From IMG/VR virus record IMGVR_UViG_3300009165_000005: a stretch of DNA of 64,000 bases. One strand, written 5' to 3'. The notes beneath the pieces were generated by a model. That model was not told the origin of the DNA and did not search any database. It worked only from the letters and a program-made list of their open reading frames with translations. This document shows, one piece after another, positions 36,611 through 55,144 of the stretch (position 1 is its first letter; each line of letters begins with the position of its first letter). The translations under genes were made by a program, and so were the position numbers. Source of the stretch: a virus (Duplodnaviria; Heunggongvirae; Uroviricota; Caudoviricetes).

Positions 36611-37457
36611 TCACTCTCTACTTTCGTTTTGGTTAGCTTGTTTTTTAACTACTATAGGGAATAGGTGGGGATCCTTTGACCCCTTCTTAGAGTTACAAGG
36701 CTGACAAGCTGGGACAATGTTAGACCTTGTATGAGTACCACCTTTAGAGATCGGAACACGATGGTCTTGGGTTAGCTTCATTGGAACAGCCACAATAAGC
36801 ACATTAAAACCCAAACTCGTTGAGGATCTCCAACCATTGATCAAAGGTGAAGTCAGAATCCTGAACAATAGCATATCGTCGAAGACGGGCTTCAGGGTGT
36901 TCAGTATGCCACTTACGTTTTAAAGCACGGACTCGTTCTCGATTGGAAGATACCCAATTGGTATATAACTCACGAACCCTCTCAGGATTGTTCTCCCTCC
37001 ACCGCTTAGAAGACGCCTTAGCTTGCTCAGGATTGTTCTTCAACCAAGCATGGTAAGTGGCCTTAGCTTGCTCAGGGTGATTAACCTTCCAAAGTTTAGA
37101 GGCAGCCAATCGGCGCTCAGAGTTAGAGTAGTATACCCTATGTCGTTCTCTCTCAACCACCCTCTCTTCTTCAGAAAAAGGATGAGAATCTCGAAACGCC
37201 TTGGAACGCTCACGGGAAACCTTTCGTTCTTCCTCAGTAAGCGGGTTGGCTTTTCTCTGATCTTTTCCCTTCTTAGAACAGCACTCTCTGCACCAAGAGT
37301 ACCGACCGTACTTACCTGTCTTATGCTTCTTGAAAGCACTAAGGGGCAGACCCCTGCCACAAGGACCAGTACAGACCTTCTTCTCAAGCGCGCCATCGTC
37401 AAGATCAAGCAGTACTTGATCTTGAGCAGACGACGGAAGAAGGTTTGAAGTCAGCAT
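36611..37457 (-). pseudogene. HNH homing endonuclease pseudogene (in-frame stop plus frameshift)
   Basis: Frame reads FTFDQWLEILNEFGF-TAA(36804-36806)-CAYCG. KLTQDHRVPISKGGTHTRSNIVPACQPCNSKKG then continues one base out of frame to 36611. N-terminal CTGPC..CRECC Zn-ribbon and W..N.PE repeats. Confidence 0.85.
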
Positions 37458-38797
37458 TAGGCAAAGTGAGATTGGATCTGATCAACCATCCCGGACAGCT
37501 TACGTAGCTCTGCACTGAGTGATGGATCATCAAGGCTTGATTCCTTGATCAGGGTATCCAGCTTCATAGTGATGAGGTTCAGGTCTTTTCTGGCAATTTC
37601 GGCACCCTTTTTCGAACTAGCTTCGATAGTTCGAAAAGCGTTCTCGACTTTAGACATCACCGAATCGGCGAATGCCTCATTGATGAAGGGTACCTCGGAG
37701 GCAGCCAACTTGTAGTAAGTGGTGTTTTTGCTCTGATCCTCACCAGCGTAGGGGTTCTCGACTTTCGTCTGCTTAGCAACGTCCTCAGCAGGTCCAGTGA
37801 CTTCACCCTCGGAGGCCTTCTTGACCTTCAGCTCTCCGTACTCACCACTTTGAACAGCGGGGTCATAACGTTTGGCAAGGCGCTCAGCTAAGGTCTTCTT
37901 GAGTTCCATGGGAAACATAGTCCTTGGGTTGGCTTCGAATTCTTTGGCATAGGCCTTGACCCCACTTTCGACCCAATACAACCAAAGCTTGGGGGATTGC
38001 TCGGGGTCATACTTACCGGACTCCATCTTTCGCTTCAGGTTAGCGATGATGCTATTGAACTGAGCGTGCAGAGACCCTGTGTTGTCCATGAACAACTCCA
38101 AGTCCTCGAGCACATCCTCATCAACTGCTGCCTTGATGGTCTTCCCGGTGACCTCCGAAAAGAGATCTGAGGCTGTCAAATGGAAGGAGCTGACGTCCAC
38201 TTCCGAAGCTGACCCACAACCTTCAACCTTCGAAAGCACTTCTTCCAGGCTAGCGAGTTTGAAGTAGAAGGCTTGATTGTCACTCTGGCCCTTGGGGGGC
38301 TTCCCCAACTCGGCCACGAGAGCCTTCAAGGAATCGACAGAACCCTTGAGTTGATCGGCACTCTGAGACCCAGAGGCATGCTCCTTGGCTGTTTGCTCGA
38401 TCAAAGCGATCTGCTTCTCAAGCTCATCAATCTGACTTCGAATCGCCTCAGCCTGTGCGGTATCTGGATCCATACTAGTGCCTCGACCTTGTTGCTCAGC
38501 TCCAACGTGTGTGGTAATCAATGGAACAGCTGGGATAAACGGATCATCGTCTGAAGCCCAACGTGCGCGCTTGGGCTTCAACAAGTCCTCTAAAGCAAAC
38601 AAATCAACAGCAATGATCGCCTGTTTTGTTTTGAGAAACGTGTCCAAAGCCCTACGACACTCGTGAGATCCACGAACTAGGGAGGAAACTAACTTGAGAA
38701 CGGACACAGATCCCAAGTTGATCTCCCTACCATCTGGGAGATCTACGTAGTCTCGAAAGCCATCGGTAGCAACTGTGACCAGAGTTCGTTGATTCAT
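37457..38797 (-). CDS. hypothetical acidic multidomain protein; candidate internal head (packaged) protein
   Basis: 446 aa with coiled coils, a central helical domain (DLELFMDN...NLKRK...GKYD....KLW.Y.V..G.KAY.KEF) and several [KR]xAS motifs. Confidence 0.5.
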   Translation of the reverse strand: MNQRTLVTVATDGFRDYVDLPDGREINLGSVSVLKLVSSLVRGSHECRRALDTFLKTKQAIIAVDLFALEDLLKPKRARWASDDDPFIPAVPLITTHVGAEQQGRGTSMDPDTAQAEAIRSQIDELEKQIALIEQTAKEHASGSQSADQLKGSVDSLKALVAELGKPPKGQSDNQAFYFKLASLEEVLSKVEGCGSASEVDVSSFHLTASDLFSEVTGKTIKAAVDEDVLEDLELFMDNTGSLHAQFNSIIANLKRKMESGKYDPEQSPKLWLYWVESGVKAYAKEFEANPRTMFPMELKKTLAERLAKRYDPAVQSGEYGELKVKKASEGEVTGPAEDVAKQTKVENPYAGEDQSKNTTYYKLAASEVPFINEAFADSVMSKVENAFRTIEASSKKGAEIARKDLNLITMKLDTLIKESSLDDPSLSAELRKLSGMVDQIQSHFA

Positions 38798-38985
38798 CTT
38801 CGTACAAGCGCGCGAGTAGGGCTACTCTGTACTTGTAACAACAAGATTACAACTCGAGTTCCGATCTGGTGGAGGCACGGGATAGTATCCGATGCAGGTT
38901 GGGTTAATAACTCAACCTAGAACTCAGTGACTTTTGGGTCTGTTGGATCCAATGGGGATCTTCTTTGACTGTATCCCATGCCTAG

Positions 38986-39822
38986 TCAAAAACCCAAAAA
39001 TACCTTCAACAGATGAGATACTAGTGCCTGAGTCCCAACACTGGGTGAGTACAGAAAGTCCCCTTCAAACTTCCACTCTGGAAGCCCATTGGAGAGAGAC
39101 TCAAGCTCATTTAGAAACGGAACAGCCTTGGGGAGCTGTTCCCAAGCCCTCTCGTTCTTCCTAGAGGCAAGAATCCGACGACGTCCATCCACTTCAGGAC
39201 CTAGAAGAACCCCTCGAAGGTACCCCTCTCGATAGAGAACCTCCCAAGCATCTATGGATACCTCGAGAGCATCCGCAAGTACGAAACCATTAGATCCGAC
39301 ATCAATGATACGTACCTCTGGAGTGGATCCCCCCAAGTTTGGGTACTTGCCTTCAGTGAGATACTCACGGATCCACTGAACCATAGTGGCGATTCGTTCC
39401 CCAACCTCTCGATTCGTCAGATTAGGCGTGAAGAACCGTGGAAAGGCCTTGAAGAAGCCCGAAACGATTGGGTCTAAGTGAGCCAACATCTGGGGCCCAA
39501 ATCGATGAGCCAAATCCACCCCATAAACTAGACCCGGGGTAGCTGGTAACAATAATAGATCCCTATTCAGGAACAAGGAGATCGCAAGGATGGTGTCCGG
39601 AGCTCGAACCCTCTTGGTGGAAAAGGTCAGAGGCAACTTGGTACCGATCACCAAATCCTCAAACAGTCGAGTCAGAGCACCTGTACTGAATGGGTCAAAC
39701 CCCTCACCATGATGGTTGTAGACCCCCTCTCCTACTTGAGATGGACTAGAATCAACCTCAAATAGGACCGAATCCTTAGGGTACTCTGAACCAATGACTA
39801 CCTCAAACTTTAGCTCTTCCAC
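38986..39822 (-). CDS. hypothetical protein, possibly degenerate DHH-like phosphoesterase fold
   Basis: 278 aa, GTG start. Contains YNHHGE and PDTILAISLF. The DHH assignment is weak. Confidence 0.4.
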   Translation of the reverse strand: MEELKFEVVIGSEYPKDSVLFEVDSSPSQVGEGVYNHHGEGFDPFSTGALTRLFEDLVIGTKLPLTFSTKRVRAPDTILAISLFLNRDLLLLPATPGLVYGVDLAHRFGPQMLAHLDPIVSGFFKAFPRFFTPNLTNREVGERIATMVQWIREYLTEGKYPNLGGSTPEVRIIDVGSNGFVLADALEVSIDAWEVLYREGYLRGVLLGPEVDGRRRILASRKNERAWEQLPKAVPFLNELESLSNGLPEWKFEGDFLYSPSVGTQALVSHLLKVFLGF

Positions 39823-39831
39823 TCAACGGAG

Positions 39832-39840
39832 TACACCGAG
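39832..39840 (-). promoter_or_regulatory. CTCGGTGTA motif 9 nt upstream of a GTG start (candidate promoter, possibly near-leaderless)
   Basis: The same 9-mer with the same spacing occurs at 58391-58399. Confidence 0.5.
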
Positions 39841-39842
39841 AT

Positions 39843-40691
39843 TCAGTTGAGCAAGTCATCCAAGATAGACGCAACAACAGGGTCCTCATACGACATTGAA
39901 GTTGATGCTACTTTGGTCACAATAGGAGCTGGTGGCTTTGAACACTGACAACCCCCCTTGCACTTGCCTCCGCAGGTGCACCCAGGTTCCTTGCAATCCC
40001 CTCCGCAGGTCTCCCCACAGGACTTCTCGCAAGATAGTTCTTCAAGCATACTAGCCTGTAAGGACTTTGTAATCTCTTGACGTAAAACCTCACGAATCCC
40101 AACGTCAGTTATTTCGCTTGCATATCTGCGTCCGAGACCCTGGCTAAGCAAGGTCTCAATAACCCTGCTTGCATCCTTGGTAGTGAGGTTCTGGACCTCA
40201 CTTTCATCCACAGGCCAAGACAACCCAGTCTCATCCCACTGAGCCTCTTCGGCCTTAGAACCCATAGACAAGATGAAGTTGATCTGCTTGGCGGAAGCCG
40301 CTGGACCCTTCGACCCCGGCTCAGCTCCTCCACGTTCATCCCAATACTCGGACTTCTCCTCATAGAGTTCCAAGTAATCTTCGATACGATCTTGGAGCGA
40401 ATTGCGCCAATTCTGAGTTCTCTTGACGATGGGGGCCTTGCCTGAGACAAGAGGGCGATTCACTCTAACCCCCAAGAGTTGGACCCTAATAGCATCCTCC
40501 CCAGCTCCAGCCGCTGAACCCCAAGCGGAGACTATCGAGGTCCAAACTCGAATAACGACCTGAGGACTGAGGTTGAGATCATAGTAGATCTCCCTATTCT
40601 GAGTCCCCTGTTTAGGTCGAAGAGCTCTAAAAGCTCTCTTGAGAAAGGTCTCCATCTCCGGCAAGGTGATCACTGTGTATTGGGCGGCCAT
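39843..40691 (-). CDS. multidomain hypothetical protein: N-terminal alpha/beta domain, small helical putative nucleic-acid-binding domain, Cys-rich metallothionein-like segment
   Basis: IRVWTSI...GEDAIRV...VKRTQNWR domain; ASAKQINFI...LTTKDASRVIETL; 9 Cys in 30 aa near the C-terminus. Confidence 0.55.
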   Translation of the reverse strand: MAAQYTVITLPEMETFLKRAFRALRPKQGTQNREIYYDLNLSPQVVIRVWTSIVSAWGSAAGAGEDAIRVQLLGVRVNRPLVSGKAPIVKRTQNWRNSLQDRIEDYLELYEEKSEYWDERGGAEPGSKGPAASAKQINFILSMGSKAEEAQWDETGLSWPVDESEVQNLTTKDASRVIETLLSQGLGRRYASEITDVGIREVLRQEITKSLQASMLEELSCEKSCGETCGGDCKEPGCTCGGKCKGGCQCSKPPAPIVTKVASTSMSYEDPVVASILDDLLN

Positions 40692-40694
40692 GGA

Positions 40695-43600
40695 TCAATA
40701 CTCCTCAACGTGGGCTGGAATCCAAACTCTAGCAACTCCTGCTTCCTTCACGTTCTCAGTATCAGCCCCAGACTTTGGTACGTTCTCACCTGGAGTAAGC
40801 CCCGCTTGAAAAACGAAGGGACTAACCCCCTTGTCCATCGGACAAGTCACCTCAAGGTTGACGGCAGCTCTAGTTAAGGCAACGTAAGCCAGGTTACGTT
40901 CTGCCTTCATCTGAGCCGCCGTCATCTCTGGATCTGGTGGAAGCTCATCAGGCTTTGGCTTACGTTCCATGGGGAACAACCCTTTGGGCATCAAAACAGT
41001 CACGTTTTTCCATTGTGCGCCCTTGACGGCATGAACCGTCGAAAGACTGATGGCTGGTGGCTTCTCCTTACGTAGACCGGGATCGAGCTTCTGTTGCTCC
41101 TTCTCCCACTTATCCGGGTCAATTCGAAGGCTCTCTGCAACCTTCGAATACCTGACAATCTTCTGGACGAAACCCTGGGATTCCTCAGGGTTAGTTCGGT
41201 TCTCTTGATCATTCTCATTCGGCTTGACGAGAGCATAGAGAAACTGTACCGCCCCAAGACCCTTGGCGCTATCTGCCTTCTCCTTGGCTGGCATCAACCC
41301 TTCATCCCCTAACTCAGAGGGTGTGGTTGGTTCCTTCGAAACATCCTCTTCTTCATCCTCCCCCTCATCATCCGAATAAACAGCCACATCATTCGTGATC
41401 TGCTCGCGTAGGGAGGTTGTCTCCGTCACGACTCTACGAGCAAGAGGATCCCAACTAGAAACTGTGGACTGCATGTTGTCGAGAACATAGTCGAGTAGTT
41501 CGGTCGTGGGCTTGTTCTCATCGATGAAGGCCCGAAGGTCCCGGATGTTCGTAGCCATACCTCGGAGATTAGCTGCTAACTCATCAACCCTCTGATTGTA
41601 CATCCACTCGCCTTTGCGAGTGTCACCCTTAGCGAAGCTCATGATCTTGAGCCGATACGGTAGCTTTAGCCTATCTGCTAAAAGCCCTACATATCTAGAT
41701 TCTAGAAGAATGTCAGGCCTAACAAGTTTCACGTCAACCCGTTCCCGACGAGCAACATCATTGAGAGCCTCATCTACTGCCTTTTCAATGTCATCATGCC
41801 CAAGAAAGAGTGCTCGATCTGGCTTCATCAGAGCAGCCACGAGGGAACTCTTCATCTTCGCGTAGTCGTTTCCAACAGCTAGATCAATGAAACCGAGAAC
41901 AGCTCTTGACTCAGGAGCCTCCAAGAAACCCTTACCTCCCCTACGTATATAGGGGATCTCATTGATGATGCAGGCCGTCTCAAAGTCATTCAGTTCAGCG
42001 TTGGTTCGAGCCAACACTGCATAGTCCTCGACCTGAGCACCCTCATCAATATCCTTCCGGAAGCGCCCAATGGTATCAATGGCTGCATCCACATTGTTTT
42101 CAGGAGTCGAAACCTGAATAGATGACCGACCCCGATCTTTACGTGGATCAGCCATCGACGGAACCACATTAGCCTCATTACCATGTGCAATGAGAGTGTT
42201 AGCCGCTTCGACAATTTCAGGTTGACACCGATAGTTGGTACGAATGTTCCGTGTAATCCATCCTTCATCAAGGCCTTCGAACAACTCGGGCTTTGCTCCA
42301 CGGAACTGATAGATTGCCTGTTTTGAGTCCCCGACCATCCAGATCGACTTATCCTTCGAGTCCTGAGTGATATGCTCCGACATCATAGCAAAGATTTCGT
42401 GTTGAGTAGCATTGAGATCCTGGGCCTCGTCTACCAAGATGTGATCGTGCATACTCTGAATAGCAACCCTTGCCTTGGGATCTCGCTTCAAGATATCCCG
42501 TAGGATCTTGAGCATGTCATCCAAGTCTCCAAGCCTCTCTCCACCCTTGCGATTCCTATTCATGAAGTTCTCGAAGGGCTTCGAGGGATTGCAGGGAGGC
42601 CGCCAACCAGGGAGATCCCCCTTGAGTCCAAGATACATCTCGTACCAGATTACTGCTTGAGCCTCATGCTTAGAAGTGACCTTCGCCTTGGCCTCCTCCA
42701 AACCAATATTGTTCCCACGCCAGGCATTAAGGTAAAGACTCGCCCTCTTGGCTTTGGGCGGCTCCATTACCCAAGCTCTCGGATACCCATACCTCGAGAC
42801 CAAAGAATCAGCTCCACACTCAGTCCACATGTTGCGGATTGTCTGAGATAGGCTTCCAGGACTAATACTCTTCACTCCCTTGCCGGTTGGAGCAATGAGC
42901 CTTGGCGGACGGAGCATGTCTTGCTCTTCACGAGTACCAAAGCCTGGAGTGTCCTTTGTACCAACAATGAGTTTCGCGAATAGCGAATGCATCGTCCCAA
43001 CCTGAATACCAGAAGATCCCTCTCCAACCTTCTTGGCAATCTTCTCCTTCAACTCGAGAGCTGCCTTACGATTGAAGGAACAAGCCATGATCCTGGCAGG
43101 ATTGACCCTAAGATCCTTTACCAAGTAGTCGATCCTAGCTACCAGCGTGGTCGACTTGCCCGATCCCGCGCCCGCCGCTACTCGAACTCGACCTCCAGTG
43201 AGAGCAGCCGCCCTCTGCTCCTCGTCAAGGTTCTTCAGAGGAAGTGGAACGTTTTGTAGCAGGTTGGGATCACTCAATGCAGCCACAGCAGCAGCCGTAG
43301 CAATACCAACAACCTCGGACTTACTTGGCGGCTCGTCACTCTGCTGATTGATCTTCAATGACTTCTTGGCCGCGAGTGTGGCATTGTCCTGAACCTCAGC
43401 CAGCATCAAGGATCTGGACTTCTGTTCAACAATCGTAGACTCTGCACCCTCAGTGGCCTGCGCCTTAATGCTCGCAGAGGCAATCTCTGTCGAGTTGGAA
43501 ACCTCGTTCGAGGCACTGTCTACTGGCGATGGGGCAAACCCACCTGACCCAGCCTGCTTGGCTGCAGCATCAATCCAATCCCGCATCCGAACGTTCTTTA

Positions 43601-44084
43601 GGGGGATGGCAGCAAAGATGTCGAGAGCCTTGTCCGAATCCTCAAGCATCGAAGCAGTAATGGCTGCCCGAACTTGCCTGACATACTTAGCGTCAGATAA
43701 GATCCCCTTGACCGTCTGAGTCCCACCACGTGTGAGCAACGTCCTAAAGTGGAGAGCCCTTCGAGCAGCCCCAGCAGGGTTGAACACCTTCAGGTTCAAA
43801 GCCCTTCGCAACATCGACTTCTGAGACTCCTTGGAGAGATGACTTTCCAAGTACTCCCGATACGCATCGATCTGGGTATCAGCCATTCGAAGGACCTTCA
43901 AGCCACGCTTGATCAGAGCGTCCTCCGTGTCATCCACCCCAGAGGTCTCTTCAGCGTACCTTTCGTAGGTATCCAAAGCCAGAAGAAAGATGATGTACTC
44001 GGCTACTTGGAACTCGCCGACCTCAATCTCACCATCATCCGCTGGGTCATCAACTGCTACCTTGGGAGTGATCGGAATTAGCAT
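40695..44084 (-). CDS. UvrD/Rep/PcrA-family (SF1A) ATP-dependent DNA helicase with about 280-aa N-terminal extension
   Basis: LDEEQRAA (Q motif), AGAGSGKSTT (Walker A), SFNRKAA, TMHSL, ILVDEAQD (Walker B), VGDSKQAIYQFRGA, TNYRC, VLARTN, STVHAVKG, ERNLAYVALTRA. Likely ATG at 44084. Confidence 0.93.
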   Translation of the reverse strand: MLIPITPKVAVDDPADDGEIEVGEFQVAEYIIFLLALDTYERYAEETSGVDDTEDALIKRGLKVLRMADTQIDAYREYLESHLSKESQKSMLRRALNLKVFNPAGAARRALHFRTLLTRGGTQTVKGILSDAKYVRQVRAAITASMLEDSDKALDIFAAIPLKNVRMRDWIDAAAKQAGSGGFAPSPVDSASNEVSNSTEIASASIKAQATEGAESTIVEQKSRSLMLAEVQDNATLAAKKSLKINQQSDEPPSKSEVVGIATAAAVAALSDPNLLQNVPLPLKNLDEEQRAAALTGGRVRVAAGAGSGKSTTLVARIDYLVKDLRVNPARIMACSFNRKAALELKEKIAKKVGEGSSGIQVGTMHSLFAKLIVGTKDTPGFGTREEQDMLRPPRLIAPTGKGVKSISPGSLSQTIRNMWTECGADSLVSRYGYPRAWVMEPPKAKRASLYLNAWRGNNIGLEEAKAKVTSKHEAQAVIWYEMYLGLKGDLPGWRPPCNPSKPFENFMNRNRKGGERLGDLDDMLKILRDILKRDPKARVAIQSMHDHILVDEAQDLNATQHEIFAMMSEHITQDSKDKSIWMVGDSKQAIYQFRGAKPELFEGLDEGWITRNIRTNYRCQPEIVEAANTLIAHGNEANVVPSMADPRKDRGRSSIQVSTPENNVDAAIDTIGRFRKDIDEGAQVEDYAVLARTNAELNDFETACIINEIPYIRRGGKGFLEAPESRAVLGFIDLAVGNDYAKMKSSLVAALMKPDRALFLGHDDIEKAVDEALNDVARRERVDVKLVRPDILLESRYVGLLADRLKLPYRLKIMSFAKGDTRKGEWMYNQRVDELAANLRGMATNIRDLRAFIDENKPTTELLDYVLDNMQSTVSSWDPLARRVVTETTSLREQITNDVAVYSDDEGEDEEEDVSKEPTTPSELGDEGLMPAKEKADSAKGLGAVQFLYALVKPNENDQENRTNPEESQGFVQKIVRYSKVAESLRIDPDKWEKEQQKLDPGLRKEKPPAISLSTVHAVKGAQWKNVTVLMPKGLFPMERKPKPDELPPDPEMTAAQMKAERNLAYVALTRAAVNLEVTCPMDKGVSPFVFQAGLTPGENVPKSGADTENVKEAGVARVWIPAHVEEY

Positions 44085-44141
44085 GGGATTCCTACGTTGG
44101 AAGCTACTACACCCAGAGCTCTCCAACAAGGAATTTATGGG

Positions 44142-45776: not shown

Positions 45777-45788
45777 GGTGTTTCGACC

Positions 45789-45863: not shown

Positions 45864-48800
45864 TTAGGCCCTTGCGCGCAGCGAGAACACCAGCAACAGG
45901 TAAAGTAATGGGAAAATAGGTTGATAATATGCCTCGGCATTAAGTGTTGTGGGGTCATCGGCATCCACCGTAGCGGAGATGCCAGTGAAGGCAGCCACAA
46001 TTTCTTGTTGGATCAACTGTTTGAACAACGAGGTCATGGAGACCTCAACCTCGTTGGTTCGGCTAGCGAGGAACTTCGTACCCACGAAGGCATCCAGGAC
46101 CGAACGAGAGCTGATCGACACATAGTCCGCGATCTGAGTGACCGTGGGCAGACGAGTCAAAACAGAGGTCATGTTGGTCGTGAGACCCTGACGGATCCGA
46201 ATGATTGGCTGCAGATCTTCAAGAACCGTGATACCAGCAACGGCTGTCTGGTTTGCTTCAACTGGATCCATGATTCTCGGGATTCTGGTGAACCCTTGGA
46301 TTTGCCTATGCGTGTACGGAGTGGCCACATCGATAGCTGGTGAGCAAACCGCACCAGCTACGGCTGCCGCGAAGAAGGTACCATCAACCAGGGACTCGTA
46401 TGTATTCCCAAGCTCATCCGTGAAGGTCACCACGACTGAGTCCGGGTAGTAAGCCACGATTCTCGAGCTGAATAGGTTCTTCGCAATTGTCTGAGCCGTA
46501 GTAGGACTGGTTCCGCTTGCAAAGCCAATCATACCCATCCGCTCCGACTGATTGCGGATGTTGCTCATGACTTCACAATGCTGAGTCAGGGCAGAATAGA
46601 CTGCGGTATCCGTGCTAAGGGGTACGAGGATATCTGGCTTGATGTTCCCAGGTAAGGGGCTGGTCAAACCATTGATCGCCGTGATGAAGGACTGAGCCGA
46701 TGCTTGGTTCGTATTCGGAACCTTCTGAACCTGAGTGATACCGACCAGAACAGCACCATTGAGGATTGCTAGATAAGCGCCGAGAGTAACCCGGTTCTCA
46801 GCGGAGAGCTTGCCGTAGTTAGCCTCAATGGTCTTGAACGTGGTGAAGATTCTCGTCGAGAAATCCTGCTTCATGTAGCGGTAGCTAATGTAGTAGTAGT
46901 CTCCGTTCTTCGGTTCGAGCCCAGACGGATTGAAGGTTTGGACATTGGCCGTGTCATTCACTCCGACATTGACGGTATTGGTGACAATGGTCTCCAAGCC
47001 CGGAATGGCGTAGTACGGAACCCCTGGGTTGACATTGAAGGACTGAGAAATGACCAGGGTGAAAGCACCACTCGTTGCGTACGAGGTAGTCGATGGGAGA
47101 ATCGTGAACCTGAGACCCGTACGGGCATCCGTATAAGTCTGCCCTGGATACCCAGTACCTGAGGATCCATTCACGAGATCCGAAGAGGACACCGTGAAGT
47201 TGTTAGTAGCACTCTCGCCATTGTCCCCAGAGGTTCCGGGTACGATCTCAGTTCCTGCTGTGGTGTTGAAAGCCGAGTTGCTACCAGACAGGAACCCAAT
47301 ACTCGAGGTTGTTGCGCCAACTGTCAGGGACTCAATCGTCAAGTAGGTCTGGTTGTTGATCACCGTCGGGTAAGCTACCGCGCCCGTTGCGTTAGGGGTT
47401 GGGGCTCCAGTCCACGAGGAGACCGCAAATCCAAGGGTATCCATGAGACGGTCGACAACCTCTTGAACCGTCACGAGAGTCTGACTTGCTGAATCACTCT
47501 CATTGAACCCAAGAATGGTGTTGGCTGTGCCATCAAGAATCAATACCGATGACTGAGGAGAGTCAACGAGACTGGTGATCCTGACCTTCCCGAGATTACC
47601 AAGAGTACCTGCCGAGGCAGTACCTTGACTTGAGATCACCGACTGAATCTGACTAGCAATGACCCCAGCTGAGGTGGACTGAATGTTGACAGCCACAGTA
47701 CCATCGAAGTCTGTAGTCGGAGTGATGACCAACGAAGCCGTGGTACTAGCCGTGATCGAGAACGTAGTGGTAGCCGAGATAGTCGTATGAGTAGCATCAC
47801 CGCCAAACGAAAGAGCGATTGACCCAGCAGTCGCCGCAGTAATCGTGATGGTGAAGTTGTAGGTTGCACCTACAATAGCAGCCATCGGATTGGTCAGGGT
47901 CTCAACGGCTCCAGTAGCGTGAACGAAGGCATTATAAGCGCCAGACCAGTTAGCACCTAGAACCCATCCTGTAGTAGGCGTGATCTCGTTGGTGAGCGTA
48001 GCCTGGAAGTCCACCCCATTGAGCCTGACCTTGAAGACATCATTCAAGCCAGAAGTGAAGGTGAAGGGGTTTGAAACGCTACTCAACAAGGTGGCAGGCT
48101 TGTTGATAGCACCAGTGGTTCCAGCAGCAGTCTGGAACGTCGTGAACCCAAGCAGGGTCTCCGCTGTACCCGGATTGATGGTTACTCGACTCTGATGATC
48201 AAACCCGCCGGGAAGAGCCGCCGGGGTCGAGAGTCCTCGAATCACAAAGAATACAGAATTGGATCCTGGACCTGGGATTGAAGTGAGTAGGTAGTTAGTC
48301 CCAGTTAGGACATAGTCAATGTAGCTATTCACCCTAGTTACGATATCGGCTGGGGTTGGGTTACCCGCGGTAAGAGTGAGTTTTGCCTTCAAGCTGATTG
48401 AAACAGTTCCATCAAAGTCACTTGTAGGGGTGATCACCAAGTTGCCCGTACCGGAGGCTGTGATCAACGTCGTAGTAGTTACCGAGATAGCTCCGGTTGT
48501 TCCACCTCCAAAAGCTGCTGTAACAGTTCCGGCAGTTCTTCCGGTAATAGTGATGAGTAAGCTATAAACCCTGGCCGAAACAGCGGCAAAGGTGTTGCTT
48601 AGCGCGGTAGTATTCCCAGTGGTGTGGGTAAAAGAATTGTAAGAACCTGTCCAACCGGTGGAAGTCCAACCAGATGAACTCAACAAGTTAACTTCCGAGA
48701 GCGTGACCCCATCAATTGCTAGGTCTAAGCTATCGTTAGTACCCGTAACAATGGTATCCACTAGAGCGCCACCACTCAAAGCAAGAGCCTGACTAACCAA

Positions 48801-50774
48801 GTAGGCTCTTGTAGCCGTACCCAAGGTAGTGGTTACCGCAGTCCCATTAACTAGGGTTCTCCAGGTTGCGGAGTACGGGCTGTAGAATGAGTAGGGTTGT
48901 GCCCCTTCATTTGTATAGACCGCATTCCGTGGTGTGGACTGCCCAAACGTAACCGTGACAGTCTCACCTACTGGAGTGCCGCCAACATGCATGGCATCCG
49001 GAATTTGCTCAACACCTCGTGGCCACTGAACGGTTTGAGTAAGCGTCCCGTTCTTGCTCCCGAAGCGAATCTGATACAAATTCTTGTTGAATAAGGTCGA
49101 GAACAACTCATATTGACCAACCCCGATTGGTCCAGGGGTCTTGTTGGTCAAGATGTAGGTGTCATCCACGATCCGGTTGTAGTAGAAGGTAGCGAAGACC
49201 GTCCAATCCGGAGGGAGAGGAGTCTTCAGGGTGATCTTCCGATTGGGACCGTCCACCGCTGTAACAATGGCTGCCGACCTATTGAGAGCATCCTCGAGAT
49301 TGCGGCCTACGCGAGCCACAATGAGGTCAGGACGGTTCGTAATGAGGTCCTGCCGGTTGTTGGCCACGGAGCTATAAAGACTACTCCCAAGGACCGTATC
49401 ACGCCCGTTACCCGTGGTGGGGATCTCGGGGAGAATGAACACGGTGTTGCTGACCGCTGCCGGGATAACGGTTGTGTCAACGTAGGCGTCACACTCAACC
49501 AAGTACAGTTTGTCATCCACCAAGGTGGGAACAATCTGTGAGGAATCGAACGGTTCGGTTCCAGGCGTGTTCAAGGTCGAGGAGACTGAATAGCTGGTAC
49601 CCCAGTGAACAATCGAGACATCGGGGGATGGGTTCACCACCACGAAGTCCTGATTCTGGATATAATCCGAACGTCCCGAACTGATGCCGCATCGGATGAC
49701 ATTCGTTACCAGCGTGTTTGGGAGATAGTCGAACGTGTCCTGCCAGGTATTAGCCCAATAGTTGATCGTAACCGTGGATCCAGGAGCCGGAGCTTGGGCG
49801 AGAGTCACGATACCATTGGTACCATCAACTGCAGTTGGAATTACCTGGACGTTGTTCACCTTCACAACGACCTTGGAGGTATCGGTCGTCGTGATGCCAC
49901 CAGATGTGCCATCCACCACCGGGCGCTGGAAGACTCGGAAGTCCACGTTGCCACTAGCCTTTTGGCCAGAGCTCAATCCGAAGATACCATTCACAGTACC
50001 ATCCCCAATGGTGACTGAGGATACCGCAGTAAAGGTCAGATGACTCTGACCTTGGTTGTCTACGAACACCGAGGTACTGAGACCGGAAATCATACCCGCA
50101 TCGATCTGAGTCTTCAAACTCGAAGCGGTTGAGGTCCCAGAGAGGAAGGTCACGGTGTATTCAGAACCACCATCCACTGAGATCTTCAGGGTATCATTGG
50201 ACCCAGTCGAGATTACGAAGGGCTCGAATCCGGGAGTCGTGATTGAAGGATTGGTCGACGATACCTGATTGGAGACGTCATCCGTGAAGGCAGTATCACC
50301 TCTATGGAAGTAATAGGTGACTCGTACGTTGTCCGTCGGCTGCGGTGGGACTTGAAGGGTGATTTCACCCATAGACCCGAGCACGCTACCAACGGCCACC
50401 GGAGTACCATTCACGGTTACCGATACGGATCGAGAATCATTGGTGACTCGACCAAAGCCTTGACCATCAACCAATGGGAAGTTACGAACCTGGAAGGTAA
50501 CCCTAGATCCATCGTTTGCCCCAAGGATGGGATTACTTGGGTTCGTATTATCCACGATCCAGCGCACACTCACATCCTCATTGACGATCTGCTCGTCAAG
50601 AGTGGAGGAAGAGCCACGCACCATCTCTAGGTCATCTTGCTCCAACTCTTCCTGACCAACACCGATGATGAACGGTATTCGCAGGCCGGCAATAAGAGAA
50701 GCAACGTTGGCTTCAGTCAGAGTGCGGGAGTATACACCTGGAGCAGCATAGGTTGCGAAGGGTCCGAAACTCAT
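45864..50774 (-). CDS. contractile tail sheath protein (about 1636 aa, many inserted domains)
   Basis: N-terminal YAAPGVYSRT; C-terminal sheath core (H...MS....QSER.G.IG, AVAG.TVLE, IRIRQGLTT, FVGTKFL, YYQPIFPLLY). AGGAGA RBS before ATG 50774. Confidence 0.9.
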   Translation of the reverse strand: MSFGPFATYAAPGVYSRTLTEANVASLIAGLRIPFIIGVGQEELEQDDLEMVRGSSSTLDEQIVNEDVSVRWIVDNTNPSNPILGANDGSRVTFQVRNFPLVDGQGFGRVTNDSRSVSVTVNGTPVAVGSVLGSMGEITLQVPPQPTDNVRVTYYFHRGDTAFTDDVSNQVSSTNPSITTPGFEPFVISTGSNDTLKISVDGGSEYTVTFLSGTSTASSLKTQIDAGMISGLSTSVFVDNQGQSHLTFTAVSSVTIGDGTVNGIFGLSSGQKASGNVDFRVFQRPVVDGTSGGITTTDTSKVVVKVNNVQVIPTAVDGTNGIVTLAQAPAPGSTVTINYWANTWQDTFDYLPNTLVTNVIRCGISSGRSDYIQNQDFVVVNPSPDVSIVHWGTSYSVSSTLNTPGTEPFDSSQIVPTLVDDKLYLVECDAYVDTTVIPAAVSNTVFILPEIPTTGNGRDTVLGSSLYSSVANNRQDLITNRPDLIVARVGRNLEDALNRSAAIVTAVDGPNRKITLKTPLPPDWTVFATFYYNRIVDDTYILTNKTPGPIGVGQYELFSTLFNKNLYQIRFGSKNGTLTQTVQWPRGVEQIPDAMHVGGTPVGETVTVTFGQSTPRNAVYTNEGAQPYSFYSPYSATWRTLVNGTAVTTTLGTATRAYLVSQALALSGGALVDTIVTGTNDSLDLAIDGVTLSEVNLLSSSGWTSTGWTGSYNSFTHTTGNTTALSNTFAAVSARVYSLLITITGRTAGTVTAAFGGGTTGAISVTTTTLITASGTGNLVITPTSDFDGTVSISLKAKLTLTAGNPTPADIVTRVNSYIDYVLTGTNYLLTSIPGPGSNSVFFVIRGLSTPAALPGGFDHQSRVTINPGTAETLLGFTTFQTAAGTTGAINKPATLLSSVSNPFTFTSGLNDVFKVRLNGVDFQATLTNEITPTTGWVLGANWSGAYNAFVHATGAVETLTNPMAAIVGATYNFTITITAATAGSIALSFGGDATHTTISATTTFSITASTTASLVITPTTDFDGTVAVNIQSTSAGVIASQIQSVISSQGTASAGTLGNLGKVRITSLVDSPQSSVLILDGTANTILGFNESDSASQTLVTVQEVVDRLMDTLGFAVSSWTGAPTPNATGAVAYPTVINNQTYLTIESLTVGATTSSIGFLSGSNSAFNTTAGTEIVPGTSGDNGESATNNFTVSSSDLVNGSSGTGYPGQTYTDARTGLRFTILPSTTSYATSGAFTLVISQSFNVNPGVPYYAIPGLETIVTNTVNVGVNDTANVQTFNPSGLEPKNGDYYYISYRYMKQDFSTRIFTTFKTIEANYGKLSAENRVTLGAYLAILNGAVLVGITQVQKVPNTNQASAQSFITAINGLTSPLPGNIKPDILVPLSTDTAVYSALTQHCEVMSNIRNQSERMGMIGFASGTSPTTAQTIAKNLFSSRIVAYYPDSVVVTFTDELGNTYESLVDGTFFAAAVAGAVCSPAIDVATPYTHRQIQGFTRIPRIMDPVEANQTAVAGITVLEDLQPIIRIRQGLTTNMTSVLTRLPTVTQIADYVSISSRSVLDAFVGTKFLASRTNEVEVSMTSLFKQLIQQEIVAAFTGISATVDADDPTTLNAEAYYQPIFPLLYLLLVFSLRARA

Positions 50775-50799
50775 GATAGATCTCCTGTCTAACAACAAC

Positions 50800-50961
50800 T
50801 AATCAGCAGTTTCTATCTGATTTGGATCTGATCTGAATTTGGTAAGAGAAAGTTCAGTCTAAGGATCTACATCCGATTTGATCTATCAGGGCGAGCCCTC
50901 AATAACACTACAAGGTGACAAGTGATTTATTCGCCATCACCTGGACAATAACCAACGTCTT
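50800..50961 (-). promoter_or_regulatory. sheath gene leader: AAATCACTTGTC candidate late-promoter motif plus RRAT repeat tract
   Basis: The 12-mer at 50917-50928 is identical to 63121-63132. AGATCAAATCGGATGTAGATCC and AAATTCAGATCAGATCCAAATCAGAT tracts. Confidence 0.5.
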
Positions 50962-51398
50962 CACCCGTCGCTCTTCACTGCCCGTTGTCTTTCGACATTC
51001 ACGGCAAAATCTACCAATTTAGCCCTTGCTTCCCTCTTAGGTTGGACCATTGCTGTGTATTCAGTATACCCCTCACCCTCCACTCGTTCTAGCGCTGGAC
51101 TTCCACCAATCTCCCGTACTTGGTTCTTAACCTTGTCTCGTTCTCGATAGGTTGCCCATCTCATATCCGCACTCCTACCGACAATCTTATCCGCACTCGG
51201 GTAGTCCTGATCGTGAACCCCTGAATTTGCAGGTGCAGTACCACCGGCAGCAAAACCAAACCCGAAGGCTGTCTTGTCGAACAACCTAAGTGCTTCCTCC
51301 TTACATGAAGGGCAAGGATGCGTTGGGTGATCTCCCATCTTCAGAGTGCGATCAAACCTAGTCGAGCACAACGGGCACTCGAAGGTATATCGGGGCAT
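50961..51398 (-). CDS. FmdB-family Zn-ribbon protein
   Basis: Likely start MPRYTFECPLC...F......CPSC at 51398, the classic MPxYxxxCxxC...CPxC pattern. Confidence 0.8.
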   Translation of the reverse strand: MPRYTFECPLCSTRFDRTLKMGDHPTHPCPSCKEEALRLFDKTAFGFGFAAGGTAPANSGVHDQDYPSADKIVGRSADMRWATYRERDKVKNQVREIGGSPALERVEGEGYTEYTAMVQPKREARAKLVDFAVNVERQRAVKSDG

Positions 51399-51411
51399 TG
51401 AGAACCCTCTT

Positions 51412-53615: not shown

Positions 53616-53627
53616 CTGATTTGATCC

Positions 53628-54329
53628 TCAGGCCAATCGTTGTCTGAGCAGATAGAGGTGGGCTTCATGCTTGTCCTCAATGCCTGCCAACATGTTGTCG
53701 ATACCGCGGGATAGTTGGCCCTTCTCTTTCATGACTTTGGCGATCTCAGCTAAGCAAGCCATGAACTGAGTCTCTGCTAGGAGACTGACTTCGAGGTACG
53801 CCTTGGGATTGTCACTGCCAGTGGACTGAACCCCATCCCCACAGTACTTCTCGACAATATGTGAGACAATCCTTGCCTGAAGACCAGGGTGCATCGTATC
53901 CAGAGGGCACCCGGTCCCAATGGCCTTCTCTGCCACCCCATCAACGTCCTCGACGGTCTGGTCGTAAAGGCGTTCGAACAAGAGGTGGTCGGCGTAGTAG
54001 GTCTCTCCATGGGTTAACCAATGGTGACTCTGGTGGATGTTAACCAACGCCTTCAAGAACACGAGGACCGTTGGTAGTCCATAACCCAACCCCTTCGCCA
54101 TCTTGTTTGCAGCCGCCACCAATGTCCGCTGAGAAGCCTGTCGATCCATACGGACCTTCATTCCAGGAAGATAGGGGGGACCATGAAAGAACGGATCATA
54201 CGAAGATGGATCCTGCCAAATCGTAAAGGTAGCATCATCCGGTGGAGTACTCGAGGAGCTAACCCCAGGGTGCTCAGGAGTTGGAAAGAATGAAGGGTCA
54301 GTACTCGCGATCTTCCAACATTTTTCCAT
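53628..54329 (-). CDS. Dps/ferritin-like protein with N-terminal extension
   Basis: HHWLTHG..YYADHLLFERLY....EDVDGVAEK matches the Dps ferroxidase motif. C-terminal DKHEAHLYLL. Confidence 0.8.
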   Translation of the reverse strand: MEKCWKIASTDPSFFPTPEHPGVSSSSTPPDDATFTIWQDPSSYDPFFHGPPYLPGMKVRMDRQASQRTLVAAANKMAKGLGYGLPTVLVFLKALVNIHQSHHWLTHGETYYADHLLFERLYDQTVEDVDGVAEKAIGTGCPLDTMHPGLQARIVSHIVEKYCGDGVQSTGSDNPKAYLEVSLLAETQFMACLAEIAKVMKEKGQLSRGIDNMLAGIEDKHEAHLYLLRQRLA

Positions 54330-55144
54330 TAGATCCTCCCGAGACGTTCTTCTAACTGCTTAGCTACTACGGTGCAAGTTGAAGCCAATTCCAGAATTTC
54401 AGGCTGAACCTTGGCCATAACAGCAGTTGAATCCTCAGCCCTCAAAGAGGCGAGTACCTTCTCGTACTGAGCGGTGATGACTTTGATCGCCGGATGCTCT
54501 GCACCACTCTTGAGGATGTCAGCGGCTATGACTACTTGATCCTGAGCACTCTTGAGGTTGCGGTGTGCAGTCTTGAGTTTCGGGATCGCGTAGTTGAGGT
54601 CGAACTGATCAGAGTCTTTTAAACGCTCCTCCAACTCCAGAATACCCATACCCTCAGCTTGAAGTTTACTGGCCCCCTCTGGGTCATAACCCTTGGCCTG
54701 CAACATCCTCTTCATCTCGGATAAGTCACCAAGCTCCGGGTCTTCCGGTTCAGCCTTATCCAACTTCAATTCCTTGCCCACCTCACTCAAAGTGAACTTC
54801 ACTGGCTTCGCAGGAAACGTCTTACCCGTGAAGGGAGATTTGACGGACCCAACAAGACGTTGACTGCAATAGAAGGACGCTCCCTCTGGATCGACATACT
54901 TCCAGAGGGCTCCTTTGACCTTCGCATCACTGGATCTCAGCTCCTTCGCAACATCAGTCAGAGATTGACGGACAGGCTTCGGAGTGAACGTCTTCCCTGT
55001 GAACGGTGAACGAGTTGTACCAAGCCTGCGTTCTTCCAAGTAGAAGACTTCGCCATCCGGATCCGAGTACTTCCAAAGAATTGCTGCTGCCATCTTTTCA
55101 AGCATGGATCCTATGCGGTTTAGAAGCCTGTCTTTGGCGCTCAT
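54329..55144 (-). CDS. hypothetical protein with tandem duplicated Cys-less Zn-ribbon-like domain
   Basis: LWKY.DP.G..FY...R..G...SPFTGKTF..KPV...L..V.KEL occurs twice. Confidence 0.6.
   Translation of the reverse strand: MSAKDRLLNRIGSMLEKMAAAILWKYSDPDGEVFYLEERRLGTTRSPFTGKTFTPKPVRQSLTDVAKELRSSDAKVKGALWKYVDPEGASFYCSQRLVGSVKSPFTGKTFPAKPVKFTLSEVGKELKLDKAEPEDPELGDLSEMKRMLQAKGYDPEGASKLQAEGMGILELEERLKDSDQFDLNYAIPKLKTAHRNLKSAQDQVVIAADILKSGAEHPAIKVITAQYEKVLASLRAEDSTAVMAKVQPEILELASTCTVVAKQLEERLGRI

What the first reader, a model, noticed from the sequence alone, without database searches (positions are those of the whole stretch)
37457..55144. Candidate capsid-packaged, protease-tagged cargo set (helicase, Dps-like, small-domain proteins) marked by [KR]-x-A-(S) motifs
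Seen: several non-structural-looking proteins in the structural operon carry K/R-x-A(-S) motifs at the edges of their folded domains. The 446-aa protein has RWAS, KLAS, KKAS and KLAAS (two of these in a repeated QS.N..(F/Y).KLA unit). The 282-aa protein has RYAS and KVAS. The Dps-like protein has KIAS and RQAS, bracketing its N-terminal extension. The 271-aa protein has KMAA, KTA and KSA. The helicase has KVA at residues 7-9 and KEA near its C-terminus. Established: T4 gp21 and phiKZ gp175 prohead proteases cleave internal head proteins at short consensus motifs. Inference: these may be processing or packaging sites, so the virion would deliver a ready-made DNA-handling and DNA-protection kit (SF1 helicase, Dps, metal-binding peptide) on infection. 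Some background hits occur elsewhere, so the enrichment needs testing.
Basis: partly seen in the sequence, partly recalled or inferred. Interest (0 to 1): 0.8.

Follow-up and report, generated by a model that had tools for sequence, protein, structure and literature searches.

The report
Lys/Arg-x-Ala-Ser marks on huge-phage late proteins
A four-residue word (Lys/Arg, any, Ala, Ser/Ala) in late proteins of this uncultured huge phage is a real, conserved signal in two of the five named proteins and is most likely where the phage's capsid protease cuts, but no cutting or packaging was measured and the helicase hits are chance.

Summary
All listed motif instances exist. Inside the window alone the enrichment is weak: [KR]xAS occurs 24 times against 12.7 expected and ranks 42nd of 10,800 comparable motifs. 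The bare K-x-A hits in the helicase and the 273-aa protein are at chance.

The motif is nevertheless real in the lineage.
- In a complete 407-kb relative, [KR]xA[SA] is enriched about 1.6-fold in the head-to-tail late region, including head genes outside the window. The rest of that genome is at expectation. It is the top of 12 order permutations.
- In cultured Tunturi_5 the richest proteins are the portal, a scaffold-like protein, a 'DNA ejection protein' between sheath and tube, and a DarB-like protein. Tail proteins are not enriched.
- The 446-aa family keeps R-W-A and h-L-K-x-A-[SG] at domain and linker borders, with about 4.4 sites per protein.
- The Dps-like family keeps [KR]-x-A-S between its N-extension and the ferritin domain.

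Best reading (about 0.5): this is the cut site of the head-maturation protease, which relatives encode outside the window. The 446-aa and Dps-like proteins are candidate processed head-internal proteins. The 282- and 273-aa proteins are weak cases and the helicase is unsupported. Other agents in this scan have noted the same code on related genomes.

The parts
37457..38797 (-). 446-aa all-helical multi-domain protein with disordered linkers, directly upstream of the tube gene. It is the best candidate for a processed head-internal (ejection-type) protein.
   Evidence: 75 homologs, all from huge-phage contigs. AF2 model: N-domain 1-73, disordered 78-108, helices 111-217, bundle 227-316, disordered 325-354, C-domain 360-445. 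No PDB fold match. 96 [KR]xA[SA] sites in 22 non-redundant members against 26.4 expected.
38552..38563 (-). RWAS (residues 79-82), at the end of the N-domain and the start of the first disordered linker.
   Evidence: R-W-A is kept in 60 of the 61 aligned homologs that cover the site (RWS in one; 31-100% identity). The next residue is mostly small (S/A/C/G, also V or K). pLDDT falls below 50 from residue 78.
37811..37822 (-). KKAS (residues 326-329), at the end of the central helical bundle and the start of the second disordered linker.
   Evidence: h-L-K-x-A-[SGA] is kept in most of the 64 aligned homologs although the following linker is unalignable. Disordered 325-354.
37697..37711 (-). KLAAS (residues 363-367) within the repeated S.N..YYKLA unit, at the start of the C-terminal helical domain.
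   Evidence: YYKLA[AS] is kept in about 40 homologs. A second copy, FYFKLAS, lies at residues 176-183 (window 38249-38260 for KLAS). Closer relatives carry a third copy.
53628..54329 (-). 233-aa Dps/ferritin-like protein with a Pro-rich N-extension of about 65 residues that carries the conserved peptide WQDPSSYDPFFHGPPYLPG.
   Evidence: Pfam Ferritin E 0.0015 (below cut-off) and PHROG Dps-type families. About 120 homologs; sources name about 30 of them 'DNA-binding ferritin-like protein', and about 30 have a precomputed PF00210 hit.
54132..54143 (-). RQAS (residues 63-66), the junction between the N-extension and the ferritin-like domain.
   Evidence: The column reads KSAS, RTAS, RQAS, KQAS, KTAS, KVAS and similar across the family, while the flanks vary in sequence and length.
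54303..54314 (-). KIAS (residues 6-9), an N-terminal (W)K-x-A-[SQG] word.
   Evidence: Recurs at the N-terminus of many family members (WKVAS, WKTAS, SKVAQ, WKSAQ ...) but is absent in others.
39843..40691 (-). 282-aa protein with a C-terminal Cys/Gly-rich metal-binding-like peptide. A weak motif case.
   Evidence: 3 [KR]xAS against 0.20 expected. KDAS becomes KEAS in 4 relatives, in a conserved stretch. RYAS becomes RY[AS][ST]. KVAS is not conserved. No separate homolog in G001, where a similar Cys-rich peptide sits on the helicase C-terminus.
54329..55150 (-). 273-aa protein with a tandem duplicated domain of about 50 residues (LWKY.DPEG..FY...SPFTGK.F). A weak motif case.
   Evidence: Only KMAA (19-22) fits [KR]xA[SA]. 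It is kept as K[TI]AA in 3 relatives. KTA and KSA are not conserved. The G001 ortholog has 6 sites against 1.0 expected.
40695..44129 (-). UvrD-type SF1 helicase with an N-terminal extension of about 290 residues (probable start ATG at 44084). The motif hits are at chance.
   Evidence: Pfam UvrD-helicase 4e-42 and UvrD_C 2e-20. [KR]xA 20 vs 16.5, [KR]xA[SA] 4 vs 2.7. RVAA and RAAA lie in the conserved stretch beside the GAGSGKS ATP-binding loop. N-terminal PK[VLI]A[VI] is kept only in close relatives.
38986..39822 (-). 278-aa DHH/DHHA1-fold phosphoesterase-like protein (context; it carries no motif and is not a protease).
   Evidence: AF2 pLDDT 90.6. Foldseek GdpP E 7e-4. VIA Z 10.4, then 8-9.5, to PAP phosphatase, NrN, RecJ and NrnA.
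45864..50798 (-). Tail sheath, 1644 aa (context).
   Evidence: tblastn to the tail sheaths of Tunturi_5, phage G gp178 and mycobacteriophages. 1 motif site against 1.1 expected.
35885..36607 (-). 240-aa probable tail tube (context).
   Evidence: tblastn to Tunturi_5 gp329 and phage G gp180, both annotated 'virion structural protein'. 84-94% identical among relatives. No motif site.
44142..45776 (-). 544-aa ROS/MucR zinc-finger plus HNH homing-endonuclease-like gene, an optional insert between the sheath and the helicase.
   Evidence: No ortholog between the sheath and helicase genes in relatives L001 and L004, nor in G001.

Best explanation
[KR]-x-Ala-[Ser/Ala] is a genuine short linear motif of this huge-phage lineage, whose capsid, sheath and tube proteins are related to those of Bacillus phage G and Tunturiibacter phage Tunturi_5.

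It is most likely the P3-P2-P1|P1' recognition site of the phage's head-maturation protease. That protease resembles the HK97 and herpesvirus-assemblin enzymes, with a candidate Ser nucleophile in an S-M-G motif (inferred from memory of the S78 S-x-G-F motif and from the intein site). It is encoded outside the window.

Two proteins in the window carry conserved copies exactly at the borders between folded modules and flexible linkers.
- The 446-aa helical protein just upstream of the tube gene: RWA|S, KKA|S, YYKLA|AS, FYFKLA|S.
- The Dps-like protein: RQA|S, between a conserved Pro-rich N-extension and the ferritin-like bundle.

Inferred mechanism: these two proteins are co-assembled into the prohead through their conserved N-terminal modules. 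They are then cut at the motif, which frees the mature domains inside the capsid for ejection with the DNA.

Shown here: the motif's presence, its deep positional conservation, its linker-border location, its lineage-wide order-specific enrichment in late and head-type proteins, and the existence of the protease in relatives.

Inferred only: cleavage, packaging and ejection.

The helicase, and most sites in the 282- and 273-aa proteins, are not distinguishable from chance or from structural conservation.
For: - 446 family: R-W-A is kept in 60 of the 61 aligned homologs that cover the site, and h-L-K-x-A-[SG] in most. There are 49 [KR]xAS (10.9 expected) and 47 [KR]xAA (15.5 expected) in 22 non-redundant members. 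This is the most numerous motif in the variable middle part. The sites sit where pLDDT collapses or where a helix starts.
- Dps-like family: [KR]xAS is conserved at the junction across about 120 homologs with variable flanks.
- G001, a complete 407-kb relative: [KR]xA[SA] gives 50 vs 30.2 at 100-157.6 kb (head region, not homologous to the window), 54 vs 34.7 in the window-homologous part, and 110 vs 105.6 in the rest. It is first of 12 order permutations in both late regions and not in the rest. The excess survives local shuffles, 92 vs about 60.
- Tunturi_5: 235 vs 148 genome-wide, and top of the permutations. Among the most enriched proteins are gp348 (12 vs 2.6), gp328 'DNA ejection protein' between sheath and tube (11 vs 2.6), DarB-like gp350 (9 vs 2.3), gp332 between protease and capsid protein (7 vs 1.7), and the portal (6 vs 1.7). 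Protease gp331 has KKVAS near its C-terminus. The sheath, tube and terminator are not enriched.
- Protease, portal and capsid protein were identified in G001.
- Herpesvirus assemblins cut after Ala before Ser/Thr: YLQA-T and VQA-S in PMC4498786.
- Giant-phage proteases cut short three-residue words in ejection proteins: AXE in SPN3US, PMC10052503.
Against: - No mass-spectrometric or biochemical data exist for any member.
- Within the window the excess does not survive a look-elsewhere correction.
- Sites are not better conserved between the window and G001 than permuted control words, 7 of 31.
- The long C-terminal part of the G001 protease carries no [KR]xA[SA].
- The capsid protein's KLAAS belongs to a helix-like stretch (GRx[KR]LAAS) that is conserved throughout the family, so it may be structural.
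- The genes lie in the neck and tail part of the operon, not in the head module.
- There is no common N-terminal leader.
- Two of the four sites in the 446-aa protein lie in the first turns of predicted helices. A helix-start motif could therefore explain part of the signal.
Confidence: 0.5

Rival explanations
1. No proteolysis. The word is a by-product of protein architecture. Lys-x-Ala-Ser/Ala followed by acidic residues may be a favoured way to end a linker and start a helix in Ala/Lys/Glu-rich helical proteins. Late structural and scaffold-like proteins are rich in such segments. Conserved copies such as RWA or GRxRLAAS would then be parts of folded elements.
For: - KLAS and KLAAS of the 446-aa protein lie in the first turns of predicted helices.
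- Positions +1 to +3 after the motif are enriched in Glu/Asp.
- The capsid protein's KLAAS is part of a family-wide conserved stretch.
- KDAS/KEAS of the 282-aa protein sits in a conserved helix-like stretch.
- Site-level conservation is not above the controls.
- The AS dipeptide (1.09-1.17x) and [KR]xA (1.03-1.13x) are each slightly over-represented on their own.
Against: - The excess is order-specific. The eleven permutations of the same residues are not comparably enriched.
- It survives shuffling within 10-40-residue blocks.
- It is absent from the non-late 84 kaa of G001.
- RWAS and KKAS lie at the start of disordered linkers, not at helix starts.
- In the Dps-like family the word is kept while its flanks change in sequence and length.
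Confidence: 0.25
2. The motif is functional but is not a head-protease site. It could be a docking or address peptide. It could be a site for a different (host or phage) protease acting in the cytoplasm or during tail assembly. It could also be a basophilic Ser phosphorylation site ([KR]-x-x-S). The marked proteins would then not need to be in the capsid.
For: - The window's marked genes lie in the neck and sheath-tube region, not the head module.
- The S is strongly kept in the Dps-like junction.
- The repeated S.N..YYKLA units look like docking peptides.
- The G001 protease's own C-terminal part lacks the word.
Against: - In the 446 family the fourth residue varies (S/A/C/G/V) while Ala is invariant. 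That fits a protease P1/P1' pair and not a phospho-acceptor.
- In Tunturi_5 the enriched set includes the portal, a scaffold-like protein, the protease C-terminus and ejection or antirestriction-type proteins. These are the classes known to be head-processed elsewhere.
- No second protease candidate was found near these genes. The neighbouring 278-aa protein has a DHH fold, not a protease fold.
Confidence: 0.15
3. Pure chance plus post hoc selection. The reader picked proteins that happened to contain a very short word.
For: - Rank 42 of 10,800 comparable motifs in the window.
- K-x-A counts in the helicase and the 273-aa protein are at expectation.
- KVAS, KTA and KSA are not conserved.
Against: - Deep family conservation.
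- Replication in a non-homologous head region of G001 (p 6e-4, top of 12 permutations).
- Replication in Tunturi_5 (p 3e-11).
Confidence: 0.1

Closest known systems
T4 prohead protease gp21 with internal proteins IPI-III/Alt; giant-phage proteases phiKZ gp175 and SPN3US gp245 with their ejection proteins
   Same: A capsid-resident protease cuts a three-residue word in the scaffold, portal, itself and non-structural 'cargo' proteins that are later ejected. Sites mark propeptide and domain borders, and several sites occur per substrate (PMC10052503).
   Different: - The known words end in Glu: L/I-x-E, S/A/G-x-E, A-x-E. Here the word would be basic-x-Ala followed by Ser/Ala.
- No shared N-terminal targeting leader was found.
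- The candidate substrates are encoded in the neck and tail part of the operon.
- Nothing is experimentally shown.
Herpesvirus assemblin (UL26/UL80 protease) release and maturation sites
   Same: Cleavage after Ala with Ser/Thr at P1' (YLQA-T, VQA-S; PMC4498786). From general knowledge, the protease belongs to the same structural superfamily as phage head proteases.
   Different: - Assemblin prefers a hydrophobic P3/P4. Here P3 is Lys/Arg.
- The assemblin substrates are the protease-scaffold chain only, not enzymes or ferritin-like proteins.
- The fold of the phage protease was not modelled here.
Phage P1 Dar system (DarB and others), head-packaged antirestriction proteins
   Same: Large DNA-handling proteins are carried in the head and injected. 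Tunturi_5 has a DarB-like protein (gp350) among its most motif-rich proteins.
   Different: The window's helicase is UvrD-type and shows no motif excess. No Dar homolog was found in the window. P1 packaging depends on protein-protein hierarchy rather than on a cleavage word (my own knowledge).
Encapsulin cargo loading of ferritin-like proteins
   Same: A ferritin-like protein carries a short conserved peptide on a flexible Pro-rich extension, next to an HK97-fold shell protein of about 290 residues.
   Different: Encapsulin targeting peptides are not removed. Here the shell is a true phage capsid with portal and protease. No similarity to known targeting peptides was tested.

Membership tests
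Prohead-protease-processed head-internal (cargo/ejection) proteins | The phage encodes a head-maturation protease. | tested here: met
   Not in the window. The syntenic complete relative G001 has one at 129378-131024 (phrog_18299 E 2.6e-11), 38% identical to Tunturi_5 gp331, annotated 'head maturation protease'. Pfam S78 and S77 models did not detect it.
Prohead-protease-processed head-internal (cargo/ejection) proteins | The same short word occurs in the canonical substrates (scaffold, capsid-protein leader, portal, the protease itself). | tested here: inconclusive
   Tunturi_5: scaffold-like gp332 7 vs 1.7, portal 6 vs 1.7, protease C-terminal KKVAS. G001: the capsid protein N-terminus has KTAA and KLAAS, but inside a family-conserved stretch, and the protease's C-terminal part has none.
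Prohead-protease-processed head-internal (cargo/ejection) proteins | The sites lie in exposed linkers at domain or propeptide borders and are conserved in homologs. | tested here: met
   Met for the 446-aa protein and for the Dps-like junction. Not met for the helicase, for KVAS of the 282-aa protein, or for KTA and KSA of the 273-aa protein.
Prohead-protease-processed head-internal (cargo/ejection) proteins | The protein is present in purified heads, with neo-termini at the motif. | not testable with these tools
   No proteomics exist for this clade. The Tunturi_5 paper reports none.
Prohead-protease-processed head-internal (cargo/ejection) proteins | A shared N-terminal capsid-targeting leader (T4 type). 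| tested here: not met
   [KR]xA occurs within the first 15 residues in 10 of 113 late and 27 of 385 other G001 proteins (p 0.54), and in 5 of 44 window proteins.
Dps / ferritin-like (PF00210) | A match to the ferritin-like four-helix-bundle family. | tested here: inconclusive
   The window protein scores 18.9 bits against a cut-off of 24.5. About 30 of the listed homologs have a precomputed PF00210 hit, and sources name about 30 'DNA-binding ferritin-like protein'. H..HHW and DH..FE..YD motifs are conserved. No fold was predicted.
UvrD/Rep SF1 helicase | The UvrD N- and C-terminal helicase domains. | tested here: met
   PF00580 4e-42, PF13361 2e-20.
DHH/DHHA1 phosphoesterases (278-aa neighbour) | A two-domain DHH plus DHHA1 fold. 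| tested here: met
   Foldseek prob 0.97 to GdpP. VIA Z 10.4 over 202 residues, and DHHA1 rmsd 2.6-3 over about 100 residues. The canonical DHH catalytic motifs were not verified; no Pfam hit.

The most novel reading that the evidence does not exclude
This huge-phage lineage uses a head protease with an undescribed basic-x-Ala|Ser/Ala specificity, closer to herpesvirus assemblin than to any characterised phage protease. It uses that protease to trim a sequence-predictable set of capsid-internal proteins. The set would include a ferritin/Dps-like protein loaded through a removable Pro-rich address peptide, which would be an encapsulin-like cargo principle inside an infectious phage head. Genes for such cargo would be parked between the sheath and tube genes.
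Probability: 0.35. Interest if true: 0.8.

Novelty: new variant of a known kind. Interest (0 to 1): 0.6.

Why it matters
- If the word is the protease's cut site, the capsid-internal proteome of a large uncultured phage lineage could be read from sequence.
- It would add a second cleavage rule (after Ala, with a basic P3) to the Glu-ending rules known for T4, phiKZ and SPN3US.
- It would also link phage and herpesvirus protease specificities.
- A packaged Dps-like protein would be a new kind of injected DNA-protection factor.
- The claim is directly testable, because a cultured relative (Tunturi_5) and published phage G particle proteomics exist.

Tried and rejected
- **The 278-aa gene upstream of the 446-aa gene as the protease.** Rejected. 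It has no invariant Ser and a DHH/DHHA1 fold.
- **Pfam S78 and S77 models on G001/G002, and Gp23 and Terminase_6C on G001.** No hits. The protease and portal were found only with PHROGs and the capsid protein with PF05065.
- **PDB sequence searches with the sheath, tube and actin-like proteins.** Nothing.
- **Fold searches with the 446-aa model.** Only generic helical bundles in the PDB and unnamed viral hits in BFVD.
- **Homology between the 446 family and Tunturi_5 gp328.** None by hhalign. The link is positional only.
- **GenBank phage searches.** DNA of the whole region, and tblastn with the 446- and 282-aa proteins, found no match.
- **Capsid-protein N-terminus as a clean test of the motif.** Ambiguous, because GRx[KR]LAAS is conserved family-wide.
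- **Site-level conservation test.** No excess over controls.
- **N-terminal leader test.** Negative.
- **Preference for Thr at the x position.** Only mild.
- **Complex prediction.** Not run.

Full report
**What the region is**

The window is one long minus-strand late operon of a divergent huge phage. No whole genome is held for it. The only GenBank phage matches for its own proteins are uncultured huge phages.

Seven IMG/VR contigs are syntenic. One of them, here called G001, is a complete 407,078-bp genome with terminal repeats. I fetched it whole. It is collinear with the entire window at 157.6-233.9 kb, at about 59% protein identity.

The 1644-aa protein is a tail sheath. The 240-aa protein is the probable tube. 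They are homologous to the sheath and a 'virion structural protein' of Bacillus phage G (gp178, gp180) and of the cultured Acidobacteria phage Tunturi_5 (gp326, gp329). The G001 capsid protein is 38% identical to phage G gp27 and 48% to Tunturi_5 gp334.

The finding therefore spans the neck-to-tube part of the operon. In transcription order it holds:
- a 273-aa protein with a duplicated domain;
- a Dps-like protein;
- a Volactin-family actin-like protein;
- a 388-aa protein, homologous to the C-terminal part of Tunturi_5's 'tail terminator';
- a 183-aa open reading frame with a zinc-ribbon match, overlapping the end of the 388-aa gene;
- the sheath;
- an optional HNH gene;
- a UvrD helicase;
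- a 282-aa protein with a Cys-rich tail;
- a 278-aa protein;
- the 446-aa protein;
- endonuclease genes;
- the tube.

In G001 the head module lies about 35-50 kb upstream of the counterparts of these genes. It comprises the portal (123544-125361), a head-maturation protease (129378-131024) and a 290-aa HK97-type capsid protein (133118-133990).

**Checking the observation**

Every listed word is there.

Per-protein shuffles give 24 [KR]xAS against 12.7 expected over all 44 proteins. The 446-aa protein has 3 vs 0.48, the 282-aa protein 3 vs 0.20, and the Dps-like protein 2 vs 0.13.

This alone is not convincing. Among 10,800 words of the same form, [KR]xAS ranks 42nd, and the proteins were picked because they contain the word.

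The three-letter K-x-A hits in the helicase (20 vs 16.5) and the 273-aa protein (4 vs 4.2) are at expectation.

Aligned site by site against G001, only 7 of 31 [KR]xA[SA] words are kept. That is no better than the eleven permuted control words.

**Why the motif is still real**

First, family depth. The 446-aa protein has 75 homologs down to 31% identity.
- R-W-A at the end of the N-terminal domain is kept in 60 of the 61 aligned homologs that cover the site. The next residue is mostly small: S, A, C or G, occasionally V or K.
- h-L-K-x-A-[SG] closes the central domain in most, although the linker that follows cannot be aligned.
- YYKLA[AS] opens the C-terminal domain in about 40.
- Twenty-two non-redundant members carry 96 [KR]xA[SA] words against 26.4 expected, about 4.4 per protein. 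Many sit in non-homologous acidic linkers.
- An AlphaFold model (mean pLDDT 74) places RWAS and KKAS at the first residues of the two disordered linkers. It places KLAS and KLAAS in the first turns of helices that follow linkers.

The Dps-like protein has about 120 homologs. The column between the Pro-rich N-extension (conserved DPSSYDP..HGPPYLP) and the ferritin-like domain reads KSAS, RTAS, RQAS, KQAS, KTAS, KVAS and so on, while its flanks vary in sequence and length. An N-terminal (W)K-x-A word also recurs.

Second, replication outside the window. In G001, [KR]xA[SA] gives:
- 50 vs 30.2 at 100-157.6 kb, the head region, which has no counterpart in the window;
- 54 vs 34.7 in the window-homologous part;
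- 110 vs 105.6 in the remaining 385 proteins.

It is first among the 12 order permutations of the same residues in both late regions and unremarkable in the rest. The excess survives shuffling within 10-40-residue blocks.

In Tunturi_5 the count is 235 vs 148, again first among the permutations. Among the most enriched proteins are:
- gp348 (12 vs 2.6);
- gp328, annotated 'DNA ejection protein', which lies between sheath and tube (11 vs 2.6);
- the DarB-like gp350 (9 vs 2.3);
- gp332, between protease and capsid protein (7 vs 1.7);
- gp345, a virion structural protein (6 vs 1.6);
- the portal (6 vs 1.7).

The protease gp331 has KKVAS about 20 residues from its C-terminus. The sheath, tube and terminator have none or are at expectation, and none of the four tail-fibre genes in this region is among the most enriched proteins.

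**Interpretation**

An invariant Ala, a mostly small residue after it, a basic residue two before it, and a position at linker borders form the signature of a protease subsite pattern. Together with the excess in portal, scaffold-type and ejection-type proteins, this points to cleavage.

Herpesvirus assemblins cut after Ala before Ser/Thr (PMC4498786). From general knowledge, they share their fold with phage head proteases. Characterised giant-phage proteases cut three-residue words in ejection proteins, but after Glu (PMC10052503).

The lineage has the enzyme. The G001 protease has a conserved S-M-G motif. The G002 ortholog carries a 417-residue intein right after it. That placement fits an active-site position; this is an inference.

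I therefore take the word to be the head protease's cut site (about 0.5). On that reading the 446-aa and Dps-like proteins are candidate processed head-internal proteins.

The sheath-tube gap seems to be a place where this lineage parks such genes.
- It is under 1 kb in LR745208.
- It holds one gene in phage G.
- It holds gp327 and gp328 in Tunturi_5.
- It holds helicase-282-278-446 here.

The 446 family and gp328 are not detectably homologous.

[quoted passage not shown] This makes the idea plausible. It concerns a different, non-orthologous protein, and co-purification cannot be excluded.

**What is not supported**

- The helicase shows no excess. Its RVAA and RAAA lie in the conserved stretch beside the GAGSGKS ATP-binding loop.
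- In the 282-aa protein, KVAS is not conserved and KDAS/KEAS sits in a conserved helix-like stretch.
- In the 273-aa protein only KMAA is conserved.
- There is no common N-terminal leader.
- The capsid protein's KLAAS is part of GRx[KR]LAAS, which is conserved across the whole family and present in the phage G gp27 sequence of PDB 6WKK. It cannot serve as a clean positive control.
- The C-terminal part of the G001 protease lacks the word.

A non-proteolytic, structural reading (helix-start word) keeps about 0.25. Another function for a real motif keeps about 0.15. Pure chance keeps about 0.1, mainly for the helicase hits.

**Relation to earlier notes of this scan**

After I had formed the assemblin idea (note) and run the G001 tests, I looked up earlier notes. 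Several agents have proposed the same [KR]-x-A head-protease code on related huge-phage genomes, one of them 407 kb long. First readers on another genome noted the same sheath-tube block and the Y[YF]KLA repeats.

These are unverified AI notes. They are not independent evidence, but they show that the scan has met this feature before on other DNA.

**Verdict**

This is a new variant of a known kind: head-protease processing of internal proteins, with an undescribed specificity and an unusual candidate substrate. The decisive experiment is feasible on the cultured relative Tunturi_5.

Noticed in passing
window 38986-39822 (-): The 278-aa protein between the 282-aa and 446-aa genes has a confident DHH/DHHA1 phosphoesterase fold (RecJ, NrnA, GdpP, PAP-phosphatase, NrN-like). 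It has no Pfam or PHROG hit. It is conserved next to the 446-aa gene in all relatives, G001 included. With the UvrD helicase it could form a nuclease-helicase pair or a degrader of signalling nucleotides.
   Followed up: partly
window 39843-40691 (-), residues ~221-255; G001 179290-182805, residues ~1130-1165: A Cys/Gly-rich peptide (C..C...CGGDC....C.CGGKCKGGC) ends the 282-aa protein in the window. A similar Cys/Gly-rich peptide is fused to the helicase C-terminus in G001, which has no separate 282-aa gene. Looser versions occur in Tunturi_5 gp332 and in some 446-family members. This suggests a portable metal-binding module that links these proteins.
   Followed up: partly
G002 contig (IMGVR_UViG_3300038415_000014) 118164-121112 (-): The head-maturation protease gene of this relative carries a 417-residue intein inserted right after the conserved S-M-G motif. 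The G001 ortholog is uninterrupted.
   Followed up: partly
window 52578-53615 (-): The 345-aa protein matches Pfam Volactin (archaeal actin homolog) over its full length at E 2.7e-60. It is conserved in G001, LR745208 and LR756511. It has no PDB sequence hit at E<=1 and carries no [KR]xA[SA] site.
   Followed up: no
window 44142-45776, 36611-37457, 11113-11745, 58406-60130 (all -): Several homing-endonuclease-type genes interrupt the structural operon: ROS/MucR plus HNH, endonuclease VII, and DUF7487 repeats. They are present or absent among close relatives. The endoVII-like 217-aa ORF and the HNH 87-aa ORF correspond to one 242-257-aa ORF in L002 and L003, so the window copy may be split.
   Followed up: partly
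window 54329-55150 (-): The 273-aa protein contains two tandem copies of a domain of about 50 residues (LWKY.DPEG..FY..ER..G...SPFTGK.F..KP). Orthologs in G004 and G001 carry an extra inserted module of about 90 residues.
   Followed up: no
capsid-protein homologs P0236-P0279 and others: Many more distant homologs of the 290-aa capsid protein have an N-terminal extension that starts MNRY[DE]I.LGK.PPP, followed by a K/P/E-rich linker of 30-100 residues. The window's clade, phage G and Tunturi_5 lack it. It may be a built-in scaffold or propeptide.
   Followed up: no
G001 158861-161647 versus window 63095-63142: G001 has a 751-aa and a 170-aa gene between the homologs of two adjacent window genes, so they are either an insertion in G001 or a loss in the window phage.
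   Followed up: no
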